From the NCBI RefSeq assembly GCF_030013205.1, contig NZ_CP122649.1: 64,000 bases of DNA. One strand, given 5' to 3'. The DNA is from Escherichia coli. Lineage in GTDB: Bacteria > Pseudomonadota > Gammaproteobacteria > Enterobacterales > Enterobacteriaceae. Shown piece by piece: positions 36,001 through 39,000 of this stretch (position 1 is the stretch's first letter; every line of letters begins with the position of its first letter). The position numbers are program-made.

Positions 36001-39000
36001 GTCCTCCAGCCCGTTTGGCTGTGTATCTGGTCTTTACCCTGGCTGGGCTTCTTGTTGAAGGTACGCGTGACCGAAATGGATAAAGGGCTCGTGAATACAC
36101 TTCAGCTCGGAGATCTGCCGGTTTTCCGCTGGAGTCGTTCTGTAGTTCCTGGCACCTGGTCTGTTGACAGAATTAATGGACGCTACCGGTTGAACCGGAT
36201 TGGAACGGATGGTTTGACGGTACACTATCCGTGGCGCCTGTACTATCAGCCTTTGTTCCTGACACCGGATAAGCAGATTTCTGATATTAACGGACGTGAA
36301 CATGAACGAAAATTCTGACGCAGTAGTGAGTGCCGCTACTTCCTGCCTGCTGTATGTGCGTGAAATCGAAAGGTCAGGCCCCGGTGAAATGCCGGTGTCA
36401 TATTCAAATGAGCTTATCCAGAGATGGCTTAGTTCGGCTGAACGTCGTAATTTGCATTCCCGCCACAGCTTGCGTTCGATTCGTACAATTCTGAAGCACG
36501 CAAGGAAGAGCCGTCAGCCTGATTTTTAGAGCGTGATGCATTTGCTGGTGGAAGGGAAGGGTGTAATCCCGGATGTTTCAGTATCGGATTTGGGCAATGT
36601 GCAGAACATACGTAATGAACTGATTGGTCTGGGTTGGTGGGTGAAGTTTGGTGTAAAGCAGGACTGGCAGCGCATCAATCTGCAACGCCAGCCGGTCAGT
36701 TTTGGCCTTTTGAATGACCTTAATCGTTGTTTTCGGCATGACGGTCAGCAGGTTGAACCTCTGCCACTTTATACAACCGGCAATCCCGGGGAATTGCGGA
36801 AGGTGCTGTAAAAGTACAACTACCGGCTGCATATCGACTCTTCAGAAGTCGTTGAAGACGTAACGGTGTTGCGCTGCTTTATTGAAACCGGAGTGATGAA
36901 TGGCCAGTGAAGATTTACTCTTTTACCGTGACCGGATTCTGGAGCGAATTGAAAAGCTCAGATCCTTTCTGAATGACCATCAGCCGGTGATGGCCGAGCT
37001 GATGACTGTGGGGACCGTCACACGACACGAAGAGCGGTTGAAAGAGGTGAACCCCATCGAGGTGAGTACTATTTCAGATGCCTCCGTGGATGAAATTATC
37101 CGTGTTATTCAGGATTTCTGTATCGATGACATTGATGTACTCAGCAGGAATTCGACGAAAGTGACAACCAAATACCCGGGTTTGATTATTGTTCCTGAGG
37201 GTGCCGAACAGCTGAGCGGAATTATTTGCGATATAAATGATGCCAAAAGTGACTTTGCCTCTGCAATGAAAAGGGTGAATTCGGAGAAACACATCCGGTT
37301 TAAGGAAGTTCACCGTAAGCTTCCCGGTCTGGTGACTGCGCATTCCACTCGCAAAATTCTGTTTGTGGAAGAACAGCTCAAAAAAGTTACTTTTGCCTGG
37401 CGGCTAAACCGAAACCAGGTAAAAACAAACGCAAGTGATCTCATCGCGATGCTGGATAAGCGTCGTTTAGTAGCGGTCAAATCGCCCGTGACAACTGACC
37501 TGACAGTGGTGGCGAACATCGATAGAGCGAAGGCATTACTGGAAAGAAAAGTACTGAGAGACGGCGAAGGGTATCGCCTTTGTCGAACCAATACCTTCCC
37601 GGTTCCGATAGCGCATTTGTTCACATACCGGCCTGAAGGCAAGGAGCGTGGAAGTAGCAAATATGCCGAGACTGATTACAAGGTGGTGAAAGCCTCATTA
37701 CCCATTTTTGGCGTCGGACAAAAGCCAACAATTAAAAGACTTCAGGACTGGGTGCCAGCGCAGGATGAAGCACTGTCCAATGGTCGAAGGAGCAACCATA
37801 GCTACACGGAACTTGTACCCGGTGCAGATCTTGGCATTTTCATTATGAGAAAGGTCTGAGGAGAAAAGCATGCAATGGATTTCCACGACCAGCCAGAAAC
37901 TTGATGAGAGACTTTATCGTGTCTGTGTCTGGGTGAAAAAATACCATGAGGATGCCATCAACCGTGTTGTGTTGACGGTTGATCTCAGTAAGGCCCGCCA
38001 TGACCCGATAGAGGACCAGGTACGGGCCGAGTTACTGTGTGGGCATTATTTTCTGATGCGGAAAGAGAACAACGCAAAATCGGCGCCAGCGGATCAGAAC
38101 TTTGAATTTTTGCCTGACGGCCGCAACCTGAGCTGGCAGACGTCGACACCGGGGCTTCAGCACCTTCTCCTGAACAGCAATGTACCTGAGTCCCTTAGGC
38201 CCCTGGCTGATTACATTCAGATGCGTCTGGCCAAGCTGACCATGGTCCCGATGTCGGGAACCATCATGAAAGCCGCACTGGAAGACAGCATCAGCTGGGT
38301 AAAAGTGGATCTGCGATACTACTGGCAGTATGAACTGGTTAATTCCCATCTGGGGCCTGTTCAGGTAACTCATAAGGCGCTTGTGCGATTCGGGAGGCTG
38401 GCAAAACACGATGAAAACGCTAGTGCAATTCGAATGCTTCGCCAGCGGTTGTCATCACCGTTTATTCAGGAATTTGAGATGCCTGGGGAGGAACTGAAGC
38501 GCAAGCAGAAGATCATGAATACCGTTGATGTGAAAATGCTTTTCCACACACATTATCCGGGCCAGAAATTACTGCTGGCCCGATATGCTAATGGTTGGGT
38601 GCTGGTGGATTGTTTCCTGTTCCACCATATCAAACCCAAAAAGAAGGCGAAAAACAAAACCAAAGCGGGTAAATCAGAAACTCAAAATATCAAATCGACG
38701 GGGAGTGAGGATCATGGAACTGGGCATTATGGTGTGCATCGTGTTGTTACTCTCACTGGCAGCGGTGTGGATCAGTAACAAGACGGTCGGATTGCTGGAA
38801 ATCCATTACTTTAAGCGGCCGCTGAGCATGGAGTATGCAGCCTGGCTGCGTGTGATGTGTGCGGGTTTGCTATTTATTTTTATTCAGATGGTCCCGGCAT
38901 TCACGTTTCTGTATACCCTGAAGCTGGTGGCACTGTTAAATCTGGGCGTGCAGACGATGAAGCTAAACGGGGTTTATAAATTTAAACGCACCGGGATGAT

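What the first reader, a model, noticed from the sequence alone, without database searches (positions are those of the whole stretch)
36805..37859. Plasmid-encoded Tus-like protein inside an operon of unknown genes, with a partial Ter-like sequence just upstream
The 319-aa product aligns by eye with E. coli Tus over the central DNA-binding region (HRKLPGLVT / HRHLPGLIT; VTFAWRLNRNQVK / LRFGWANKHIIK). Immediately upstream (36808-36824) lies gtaaaagtacaactacc, which shares the left half of the dispersed palindrome and partly resembles the reverse complement of the Ter core (AGTTACAAC). Replication fork arrest could protect against head-on collisions or define the termination point of theta or rolling-circle replication. 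A Tus homologue co-transcribed with eight unknown genes is unusual.
Basis: partly seen in the sequence, partly recalled or inferred. Interest (0 to 1): 0.65.

Follow-up and report, generated by a model that had tools for sequence, protein, structure and literature searches.

The report
Known IncHI plasmid Tus terminator homologue
The gene is a real but already annotated plasmid copy of the replication-fork-stopping protein Tus, part of the backbone of IncHI resistance plasmids such as R27. The "Ter-like" sequence in front of it is only the decayed end of the neighbouring gene, and the DNA site this Tus binds is still unknown.

Summary
The ORF at 36900-37859 (+, 319 aa) exists. It is 100% identical to the Tus homologue of the IncHI1 plasmid R27 (WP_000135563.1), which NCBI already names "DNA replication terminus site-binding protein".

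**Family membership is solid.**
- Pfam Ter (PF05472) matches at E = 1e-19.
- A confident AlphaFold model (pLDDT 91.5) matches only E. coli Tus structures, over the full length (TM 0.77-0.81).
- The residues of the cytosine "lock" pocket (I79, F140, H144, G149) and E49 are identical.
- The positions I recalled as base-contacting differ from E. coli Tus.

**The proposed Ter-like sequence is not supported.**
- The 17-mer at 36808-36824 scores 1.7 bits on an E. coli Ter matrix (real Ter sites score 22-31). 245 window positions score as well or better.
- It is unique in the window and not conserved in IncHI2.
- It is the former coding sequence of the upstream gene, which carries two in-frame stops in IncHI1.

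**No Ter site was found.** No E. coli-type Ter above chance occurs in the window, in R27 or in an IncHI2 plasmid. The cognate site is unidentified.

**The gene context is not unusual.** The order tus, two ORFs, reverse tyrosine recombinase, hha is conserved backbone synteny down to 31% Tus identity.

The most likely role is a plasmid-specific polar fork barrier, but this is inferred. Seen in passing: the real dispersed palindrome AAAAGTWACTTTT, with 42 copies in R27.

The parts
36900..37859 (+). tus homologue, 319 aa (WP_000135563.1), identical to the R27 protein
   Evidence: ORF. Pfam PF05472, E = 9.7e-20. 100% tblastn identity to R27 NC_002305.1 positions 162025-162981 (annotated CDS 162022-162981). 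AlphaFold model pLDDT 91.5, matching Tus structures 4XR2/1ECR at TM 0.77-0.81. dN/dS about 0.18 against the pNDM-CIT-like orthologue.
36890..36893 (+). GGAG ribosome-binding site, 7 nt upstream of the ATG
   Evidence: Read directly from the sequence.
37296..37334 (+). codons for residues 133-145 (RFKEVHRKLPGLV), holding the counterparts of E. coli Tus R139, F140, H144, P148 and G149 (cytosine-lock pocket)
   Evidence: Alignments. Residue roles from review PMC10331603, Table 1.
37382..37394 (+). copy of the dispersed palindrome AAAAGTTACTTTT inside tus (codons K-K-V-T-F of the strand that aligns with the E. coli Tus F170-W172 segment)
   Evidence: The same position holds a copy in IncHI2, in the pNDM-CIT-like lineage, and with one mismatch in L015.
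36296..36899 (+). gene upstream of tus, broken by two in-frame stops in IncHI1 (36527-36529 and 36809-36811).
   Evidence: The translation shows two stops, with the protein sequence conserved beyond each. The orthologue is an intact 203-aa ORF in L004.
33688..33715 (+). strong terminator-like hairpin (12-bp stem, then a T run) that closes the preceding unit
33724..33780 (+). promoter-like hexamer pairs; the likely start of the transcription unit that contains tus
   Evidence: These are consensus matches only, not above shuffle expectation for the region.
34057..36318 (+). five co-oriented, closely spaced ORFs of unknown function upstream of tus (89, 196, 85, 178 and 151 aa)
   Evidence: No hits in NCBIfam or PHROGs apart from one weak unnamed PHROG. 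Orthologues are syntenic in IncHI2, IncHI3, L015 and L016.
37870..39058 (+). two ORFs downstream of tus (302 aa at 37870-38778; 114 aa at 38714-39058, overlapping and hydrophobic)
   Evidence: A 41-bp block identical between IncHI1 and IncHI2 lies in their overlap, where both reading frames are constrained.
39083..40273 (-). convergent tyrosine recombinase/integrase, always next to the tus unit
   Evidence: Weak XerC/XerA similarity. Synteny in all lineages examined.
40283..40329 (-). recombinase promoter-like site (TTCATA-17-TG-TAAAAT) with an overlapping LexA-box-like CTGT-N8-ACAG at 40283-40298, inside a block conserved between IncHI1 and IncHI2
40437..40691 (+). hha/ymoA-family gene that ends the conserved block

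Best explanation
The ORF encodes the IncHI-plasmid member of the Tus family, a DNA-binding replication terminator protein.

Shown:
- It is a full-length Tus-fold protein under purifying selection.
- It keeps the residues that in E. coli Tus trap the flipped cytosine C(6) (F140, H144, G149, plus I79) and the fork-arrest residue E49.
- It is a core backbone gene with fixed neighbours: several small unknown ORFs, then tus, two ORFs, a reverse-strand tyrosine recombinase, and hha.

Inferred:
- The protein binds one or a few asymmetric sites on the plasmid itself, and their sequence differs from E. coli Ter. The positions I recalled as base-contacting have changed, and no host-type Ter exists on IncHI1 or IncHI2.
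- It arrests DnaB-driven forks in one orientation by the same strand-separation-triggered cytosine lock.
- The likely benefit is to fix where theta replication from the RepHI1 origins ends, close to the recombinase that probably resolves multimers, without depending on or disturbing the host Tus/Ter trap. An alternative benefit is to stop a fork from running head-on into the long co-oriented Tra2/tus gene block.

The cognate site was not found here.
For: Family:
- Pfam Ter, E = 9.7e-20.
- NCBIfam Tus models, E = 5.6e-14 and 2.5e-6.
- PDB Tus, E = 6e-5.
- An alignment of 51 homologues is colinear with E. coli Tus to the C-terminus.
- AlphaFold model pLDDT 91.5, pTM 0.84. The only significant PDB fold matches are Tus-Ter complexes, TM 0.77-0.81, E = 1e-20.

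Residues:
- Conserved: E49 to E45, I79 to I75, K89 to K87, R139 to R133, F140 to F134, H144 to H138, G149 to G143, R157 to R151, W172 to W167, R232 to R229.
- The roles of E49, F140, H144 and G149 come from PMC10331603, Table 1.
- Diverged at positions I recalled as base contacts: A173 to R, K175 to N, H176 to R, V234 to N, Q250 to K, Q252 to V, R288 to N.

Selection and spread:
- dN/dS about 0.18.
- A homologue is found in 2749 plasmid records.
- Synteny is kept down to 31% identity.

No host-type Ter:
- The best matrix score in R27 is 17.5 and in IncHI2 15.1. Shuffled R27 sequences give maxima of 14.5-21.

Position:
- The detrended GC-skew minimum of R27 is at 55.9 kb, beside RepHI1A. The maximum is at 149.9 kb, 12 kb from tus at 162 kb.
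- tus ends a block of about 58 kb of genes co-oriented with the fork coming from the origin.

Precedent:
- Plasmid-borne tus genes and the domestication hypothesis (PMC6549158).
- A Pseudoalteromonas chromid carries tus, but no E. coli-type ter could be found there either (PMC7858055).
Against: - No cognate binding site was identified, so DNA binding, polarity and fork arrest are all inferred from homology.
- R198, implicated in slowing the fork in E. coli, aligns with V193.
- The scores are far below the NCBIfam equivalog cut-offs (52 bits against 323), so this is not an equivalog of chromosomal Tus.
- GC skew is confounded by gene orientation, is weak in the IncHI2 plasmid, and its maximum is 12 kb away from tus.
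- tus has no Ter next to it, unlike chromosomal tus/TerB.
- I found no experimental work on any IncHI Tus in the searchable literature.
Confidence: 0.6

Rival explanations
1. The protein has the Tus fold but a different job. It binds the dispersed 13-bp palindrome AAAAGTWACTTTT (42 copies in R27, one inside tus itself) and acts as a plasmid-wide regulator, organiser or multi-site fork modulator.
For: - The palindrome is hugely over-represented: 11 against 0.17 expected in the window, 42 against about 0.3 in R27, and 30 in an IncHI2 plasmid, all but one of them outside its roughly 92-150 kb resistance-gene region.
- Copies sit at orthologous positions in IncHI1 and IncHI2, including the copy inside tus.
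- It shares GTAACT with the Ter core.
- No binder for it is known to me, and I found none in the literature.
Against: - A near-perfect palindrome suggests a symmetric dimer rather than an asymmetric monomer such as Tus.
- There is no conserved G/C pair at a lock position in the flanks.
- The centre base A or T shows no polarity around the plasmid.
- IncHI3 has the same palindrome (30 copies in 60 kb), yet its Tus is only 24% identical with a different sequence in the aligned strand (IRSLGFTWQIPVIH against KKVTFAWRLNRNQ).
- The 17 kb around the tus homologue in L016 has no clean copy.
- About half of the R27 copies lie between genes, which is typical of operators. This count was made by hand.
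Confidence: 0.07
2. The plasmid Tus acts on the host chromosome's Ter sites, adding to or competing with host Tus, rather than on the plasmid.
For: - The Tus fold and lock pocket are conserved.
- The usual hosts (Salmonella, E. coli, Klebsiella, Enterobacter) all have Tus/Ter systems.
- No Ter-like site was found on the plasmid.
Against: - Identity to E. coli Tus is only 24%.
- The positions I recalled as base contacts differ, so recognition of GTTGTAAC-type Ter is unlikely.
- A redundant copy of a host function would not explain strict retention with fixed synteny across lineages whose Tus proteins have diverged to 24-31% identity.
Confidence: 0.08
3. One reading: the 17-mer at 36808-36824 is a partial Ter site at which the protein binds, as at tus/TerB in E. 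coli.
For: - Its position just upstream of tus mirrors TerB in E. coli.
- Its reverse complement contains GTTGTAC, one deletion away from GTTGTAAC.
Against: - Matrix score of 1.7 bits, with 245 equal or better positions in the window.
- It is the in-frame remnant of the upstream ORF. It differs at two positions in the pNDM-CIT-like lineage, where it is coding, and has no counterpart in IncHI2, IncHI3, L015 or L016.
Confidence: 0.03
4. The gene is an inactive relic carried along with the backbone.
For: - No function has been demonstrated.
- The neighbouring upstream gene is decaying in IncHI1.
Against: - The ORF is intact, with dN/dS about 0.18.
- Lock residues are conserved across 51 homologues.
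- The Tus-region segment matched 1421 plasmid records, against 1454 for another single-copy element shared by IncHI1 and IncHI2 plasmids, so nearly all IncHI1/IncHI2 plasmids appear to carry it.
Confidence: 0.02

Closest known systems
E. coli Tus (P16525; PDB 1ECR, 2I06, 4XR0-3) with Ter sites
   Same: - Same family (PF05472) and same two-domain fold over the full length (TM about 0.8).
- Identical residues at the C(6) lock pocket (I79, F140, H144, G149), at E49, and at several other conserved positions (K89, R139, R157, W172, R232).
   Different: - 24% identity, and far below the NCBIfam equivalog cut-off.
- The positions I recalled as base contacts are changed, and R198 is not conserved.
- The gene is plasmid-borne, embedded in an operon of unknown genes, with no Ter in front of it.
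- No GTTGTAAC-type Ter occurs anywhere on the plasmid.
'Mobile' plasmid-borne tus genes and the chromid tus of Pseudoalteromonas (Galli et al. 2019, PMC6549158; Xie et al. 2021, PMC7858055)
   Same: - A plasmid-type Tus outside the resident chromosomal clades.
- Its cognate ter cannot be found with the E. coli consensus.
- In some relatives (L015, and R27's RepFIA) a Rep3-type replicon lies a few kb from tus.
   Different: - In Pseudoalteromonas tus sits beside ori2 with repA and parAB.
- Here it sits about 107 kb from RepHI1A, next to a tyrosine recombinase and hha, and the window plasmid has no replicon nearby.
ter sites of plasmids R6K and R1/R100 (summarised in PMC10331603)
   Same: Replication fork barriers used by plasmids to set a terminus or to enforce one-way replication.
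   Different: Those plasmids carry host-type Ter sites and borrow the host Tus. IncHI plasmids do the reverse: they carry their own Tus and no host-type Ter.
Bacillus subtilis RTP/Ter
   Same: A polar replication fork trap protein that regulates its own gene.
   Different: Unrelated fold. It is a dimer pair acting on bipartite sites. It is an analogue only and was not tested here.

Membership tests
Tus / Ter protein family (Pfam PF05472) | Significant match to the family profile | tested here: met
   PF05472, E = 9.7e-20, residues 15-196 matching model positions 11-193 of 296.
Tus / Ter protein family (Pfam PF05472) | Full-length Tus fold (two alpha+beta domains joined by interdomain beta-strands) | tested here: met
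   AlphaFold model pLDDT 91.5. Foldseek against the PDB: the only hits with E <= 0.001 are Tus chains 4XR2, 1ECR, 4XR1 and 4XR0, TM 0.74-0.81, about 330 aligned columns. Caveat: the E. coli Tus sequence was one of the 51 rows in the alignment; no templates were used.
Tus / Ter protein family (Pfam PF05472) | Cytosine C(6) lock pocket residues F140, H144, G149 (and I79) | tested here: met
   F134, H138, G143 and I75 are identical. Roles of F140, H144 and G149 are from PMC10331603, Table 1. The role of I79 is from my recollection of Mulcair et al. 2006.
Tus / Ter protein family (Pfam PF05472) | Fork-arrest residues E49 and R198 | tested here: inconclusive
   E49 is conserved as E45, and 43 of the 51 aligned sequences have E there. 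R198 aligns with V193 in a poorly conserved stretch, with K195 nearby.
Chromosomal Tus equivalog (NCBIfam NF002810 / TIGR02648) | Score above the curated equivalog cut-off | tested here: not met
   52 bits against a cut-off of 323; 27 bits against 178. It is a family member, not an equivalog of enterobacterial chromosomal Tus.
Tus-Ter fork barrier system | Presence of cognate Ter site(s) on the replicon | tested here: not met
   No E. coli-type Ter above chance in the window, R27 or IncHI2. The candidate at 36808-36824 was rejected. A divergent cognate site may exist but was not identified.
Tus-Ter fork barrier system | Sequence-specific monomer binding and orientation-dependent arrest of DnaB or forks | not testable with these tools
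   This needs EMSA or SPR, ChIP-seq and 2D gels.
Tus-Ter fork barrier system | Location in the replication terminus region | tested here: inconclusive
   The detrended GC-skew maximum of R27 is at 149.9 kb and tus is at 162 kb. The minimum at 55.9 kb lies beside RepHI1A. In the window the skew flattens at about 52 kb, 15 kb beyond tus. Skew is confounded by gene orientation and is unclear in IncHI2.

The most novel reading that the evidence does not exclude
The IncHI Tus homologue reads the dispersed 13-bp palindrome AAAAGTWACTTTT. That palindrome has 42 positionally conserved copies in R27, including one inside tus. On this reading a Tus-fold protein would work as a many-site, plasmid-wide DNA organiser or fork and transcription modulator, rather than as a one- or two-site terminator. 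A milder version, which I rate at about 0.5 probability and about 0.45 interest: it is an orthogonal Tus with a new, still unidentified Ter sequence, representing the plasmid ancestor of the chromosomal fork trap.
Probability: 0.06. Interest if true: 0.75.

Novelty: already known. Interest (0 to 1): 0.28.

Why it matters
The gene itself is ordinary. It is annotated and belongs to the backbone of IncHI multidrug-resistance plasmids.

What remains open is that no one appears to know what DNA sequence any plasmid-type Tus binds. Published attempts on the Pseudoalteromonas chromid failed with the E. coli consensus (PMC7858055), and my scans of R27 and an IncHI2 plasmid fail in the same way.

Chromosomal Tus is proposed to have been domesticated from plasmids (PMC6549158). 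Identifying the IncHI Ter would therefore:
- test that hypothesis;
- show how Ter specificity co-evolves with the Tus DNA-binding surface while the lock pocket stays fixed;
- supply an orthogonal Tus/Ter pair for biotechnology.

It would also show how very large, multi-replicon resistance plasmids complete replication and link it to multimer resolution.

Tried and rejected
1. **E. coli Ter searches.** GTTGTAAC gave 3 hits against 1.6 expected, none in a Ter context. The 16-mer core with up to 5 mismatches gave nothing. A 23-bp matrix from ten Ter sites gave nothing above shuffles in the window, R27, IncHI2, IncHI3, L015 or L016.
Chance-level score, unique, and ex-coding sequence.
3. **Footprinting the 130 bp upstream of tus in six lineages.** No shared motif.
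4. **Inverted 23-mers flanking tus (35269-35291 and 40288-40310).** They are 83% complementary, with cores 10/12 like Ter. Rejected because both look like promoter regions, the Ter-like half of the left arm is not conserved in IncHI2, about 5 such 10/12 matches are expected by chance, and the right arm overlaps a LexA-box-like site.
5. **A 41-bp block identical between IncHI1 and IncHI2 (about window 38714-38754, containing GTTGTTACTC).** Explained by two overlapping reading frames.
6. **Weak Ter-like ATTTACCAAATCGTAACTAACTT at 18863 (+).** It lies in a noncoding region about 93% conserved between IncHI1 and IncHI2. Its 11.4 bits are within chance, no cytosine is available at the lock position, and its orientation would block the fork that GC skew says passes through. 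It may be the "potential ter site" mentioned for IncHI2 in PMC5923156, but I could not check this.
7. **Perfect 17-bp inverted repeats at 47475 and 47710, near the skew switch.** Rejected as a Ter pair. They close a 252-nt element with strong predicted structure (z = -4.0 and -4.8) and some compensatory changes. If the repeats are aligned to Ter positions 6-11 (5 of 6 match, a chance-level basis), both blocking faces would point outward.
8. **The dispersed palindrome as Ter.** Judged unlikely; see the rival explanations.
9. **k-mers repeated in both R27 and IncHI2.** Apart from the palindrome and its variants, only iteron and centromere repeats and the inverted-repeat pair of item 7 emerged.
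10. **Functions of neighbouring genes.** No NCBIfam or PHROGs hits.
11. **Rfam on the whole window.** No hits.
12. **Literature.** The R27 (Sherburne 2000) and R478 (Gilmour 2004) genome papers are not in the held library. The first search was wasted on "InCHIANTI" matches.
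Full report
**What is there.** The window holds an ATG-initiated ORF at 36900-37859 on the + strand, 319 aa, with a GGAG 7 nt upstream. Megablast of 34000-40500 gives 100% identity to many IncHI1-type plasmids. By that match the window corresponds to about positions 3333-67332 of Salmonella plasmid pSA20030575.1. The protein is WP_000135563.1, named "DNA replication terminus site-binding protein" in RefSeq. 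By tblastn it is 100% identical to the gene of the IncHI1 reference plasmid R27, NC_002305.1 positions 162022-162981. So the observation concerns an annotated backbone gene of a well-known plasmid family.

**Is it Tus?** Yes.
- Pfam Ter (PF05472) matches at E = 9.7e-20.
- Two NCBIfam Tus models match at E = 5.6e-14 and 2.5e-6, but far below their equivalog cut-offs: 52 bits against 323.
- phmmer against PDB sequences finds only Tus, E = 6e-5, residues 20-188.
- BLASTP to E. coli Tus gives 24% identity, E = 5e-7.
- The single-sequence matches cover only the N-terminal 60%. I therefore aligned 51 homologues collected from two database searches. The alignment is colinear with E. coli Tus to the C-terminus.
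- An AlphaFold2 model built on this alignment is confident (pLDDT 91.5, pTM 0.84).
- In a Foldseek search of the PDB the model matches only Tus-Ter complexes (4XR2, 1ECR, 4XR1, 4XR0), at TM 0.74-0.81 and E about 1e-20. The next hit has E = 0.07.

**Key residues.**
- The E. coli residues that hold the flipped cytosine C(6) are identical: F140, H144 and G149 (roles from PMC10331603, Table 1), plus I79 (role from my memory of Mulcair et al. 2006). In the plasmid protein they are F134, H138, G143 and I75.
- E49 is also identical (E45), as are K89, R139, R157, W172 and R232.
- Positions I recalled as base-contacting differ: A173 to R, K175 to N, H176 to R, V234 to N, Q250 to K, Q252 to V, R288 to N. 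R198 aligns with V193.
- The simplest reading is that the lock mechanism is conserved while DNA sequence specificity has changed.
- The gene is under purifying selection: dN/dS is about 0.18 against the 86%-identical pNDM-CIT-like orthologue.

**The "Ter-like" sequence.**
- The 17-mer at 36808-36824 is there. On a matrix built from ten E. coli Ter sites, its best 23-mer scores 1.7 bits. The Ter sites themselves score 21.9-31.1. 245 window positions do as well or better.
- The 13-mer AAGTACAACTACC occurs nowhere else in the window within two mismatches, and the left 10-mer GTAAAAGTAC is not over-represented.
- Translating 36296-36898 in one frame gives a protein colinear with the intact 203-aa ORF that precedes tus in the pNDM-CIT-like lineage (L004). 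In IncHI1 this protein is interrupted by two in-frame stops.
- The second stop is the TAA within "gtaaaag". The protein sequence continues to be conserved after it: KYNYRLHIDSSEVVEDVTVLRCFIETGVM against KYSYRLRIASSEVVEDVTVLRCFIETGVM.
- So the 88-bp "intergenic" spacer is the remnant 3' end of a decaying neighbour gene.
- IncHI2, IncHI3 and two more distant relatives have nothing similar upstream of tus.

**Is there any Ter?**
- No E. coli-type Ter occurs above chance in the window.
- The best score in the whole of R27 is 17.5, while shuffled R27 sequences give maxima of 14.5-21.
- The best score in a complete IncHI2 plasmid, pSI96-1, is 15.1.
- Several other candidates were examined and rejected. 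They are listed in the tried-and-rejected field.
[quoted passage not shown] For the Pseudoalteromonas chromid it reports that the E. coli consensus finds nothing (PMC7858055).
- The cognate site of plasmid-type Tus proteins therefore seems to be unknown.

**Context.**
- A strong terminator-like hairpin at 33688-33715, followed by promoter-like hexamers, marks the probable start of the transcription unit.
- The unit then has five small unknown ORFs, the split ORF, tus, and two more ORFs ending at 39058. The last two overlap.
- A tyrosine recombinase (39083-40273) converges on the unit, followed by hha. None of the unknown ORFs hits NCBIfam or PHROGs.
- The order toprim gene, paralogous genes of about 300 aa, small ORFs, tus, two ORFs, reverse recombinase, hha is kept in IncHI2 (59.5% Tus identity) and in metagenomic relatives at 34% and 31% identity. 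In the IncHI3 locus (24%) the order is kept through the recombinase, although the paralogous genes are not evident there and the fetched record ends before any hha.
- tblastn finds a homologue in 2749 of 72,556 plasmid records.

**Where does the plasmid terminate?**
- In R27 the detrended cumulative GC skew has its minimum at 55.9 kb, next to RepHI1A (54.4-55.2 kb). Its maximum is at 149.9 kb. tus is at 162 kb.
- Nearly all genes from about 38 kb, down through the coordinate origin, to the end of the tus unit lie on one strand. They are co-directional with a fork leaving the RepHI1 origins. Orientation flips at the recombinase.
- In the window, the skew stays positive to about 52 kb and then flattens.
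- This fits a terminus-proximal position for tus. It is weak evidence, because transcription-linked skew is confounded with replication-linked skew, and the IncHI2 profile is unclear.

**Most likely mechanism.** I commit to a plasmid-specific, orthogonal Tus that binds its own, still unidentified Ter and arrests forks in a polar way with the conserved cytosine lock. It would act near the multimer-resolution recombinase.
- Shown: family, fold, lock residues, selection, synteny, and the absence of host-type Ter.
- Inferred: DNA binding, polarity, the site, and the biological benefit.
- Confidence: about 0.97 that it is a Tus-family protein, and about 0.6 that it works as described.

**Novelty and score.** The gene and its identity are already known. 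Plasmid-borne tus is discussed in the literature (PMC6549158, PMC10331603). The residual interest lies in the unknown Ter specificity, so I give the finding a low to moderate score.

**Seen in passing.**
- The dispersed palindrome AAAAGTWACTTTT, often flanked by G...C, is real and striking. The window has 11 copies against 0.17 expected, and R27 has 42 against about 0.3. An IncHI2 plasmid has 30, all but one of them outside its roughly 92-150 kb resistance-gene region. IncHI3 has 30 in 60 kb of backbone.
- Many copies sit at orthologous positions in IncHI1 and IncHI2, and about half of the R27 copies lie between genes.
- It is probably the operator or loading site of some pan-IncHI DNA-binding protein, comparable to the KorB operators of RK2 (a comparison from my own knowledge).
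- Tus is an unlikely reader of it, for the reasons given under the rival explanations.
- Other items are listed in the noticed-in-passing field.

Noticed in passing
window 3913, 5759, 11537, 18050, 18731, 25194, 28948, 32538, 37382, 44376, 52069 (13 bp each); R27 loci L006-L009; IncHI2 L010-L013; IncHI3 L014 and L005: The dispersed 13-bp palindrome AAAAGTWACTTTT, often extended to GAAAAGTWACTTTTC. The window has 11 copies against 0.17 expected, and R27 has 42. An IncHI2 plasmid has 30, all but one outside its resistance-gene region. IncHI3 has 30 in 60 kb. It is by far the most over-represented 10-12-mer. Many copies lie at orthologous positions in IncHI1 and IncHI2, and about half lie between genes. 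I found no binder or description. It may be the operator of a global plasmid regulator.
   Followed up: partly
window 18740-19040 (between trhI and the next gene): A noncoding stretch of about 300 bp that is about 93% identical between IncHI1 and IncHI2, while flanking genes are about 70-75% identical. It holds two adjacent palindrome-like half sites, a GCGCGTTAAGCGC palindrome, an imperfect hairpin (CACCACCGGCAAAATGTCACCTTTGTCGCTGGTG) and a weak Ter-like 23-mer at 18863. No Rfam hit. It could be a regulatory leader, a small RNA or a DNA-level element.
   Followed up: partly
window 47475-47726: An unannotated 252-nt element closed by perfect 17-bp inverted repeats (TTGCATGTCCTCATCCC...GGGATGAGGACATGCAA). 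It is present once in each of 1454 IncHI1/IncHI2 plasmid records. Predicted folding is much stronger than for shuffles on both strands (z = -4.0 and -4.8). The variable half shows some compensatory changes, and the element holds a T-rich tract. No Rfam family matches. It is a candidate structured RNA or single-strand DNA element.
   Followed up: partly
window 40283-40298, within the conserved block 40275-40345: A LexA-box-like CTGT-N8-ACAG (CTGTTTTTATTTACAG) overlaps the predicted start region of the tyrosine recombinase promoter (TG-TAAAAT -10 on the minus strand). The block is conserved in the pNDM-CIT-like lineage and, with one change (CTGG), in IncHI2. The recombinase next to tus may be SOS-regulated.
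   Followed up: partly
window 36296-36899: The gene just upstream of tus carries two in-frame stop codons in IncHI1 (also in R27). It is an intact 203-aa ORF in the pNDM-CIT-like lineage and in L015 (weak DUF2913 hit), and it is absent from IncHI2. It is either decaying or split into two small genes.
   Followed up: yes
R27 locus L006 25649-27738 (outside the window); IncHI2 L010 32011-34484: An array of at least 20 copies of TGGCGATTAAGGGGGTTAAAT, mostly at about 52-54 bp spacing in R27, next to parA/parB and identical between IncHI1 and IncHI2.
   Followed up: no
window 38714-38754: A 41-bp block identical between IncHI1 and IncHI2, in a region that is otherwise 69% identical. It lies where the 3' end of the 302-aa ORF overlaps the start of the hydrophobic 114-aa ORF, so both reading frames constrain it.
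   Followed up: partly
L015 12645-13727; R27 156848-157603: In a distant relative (34% Tus identity) a Rep3-family initiator with iterons (GGACAGTGGACC, 5 copies) lies right after hha, 3.6 kb from tus. R27 has its IS1-flanked RepFIA repE at a similar distance. The window plasmid has lost it, leaving IS1 and ISVsa5 there. This recalls the tus-next-to-origin layout of the Pseudoalteromonas chromids.
   Followed up: no
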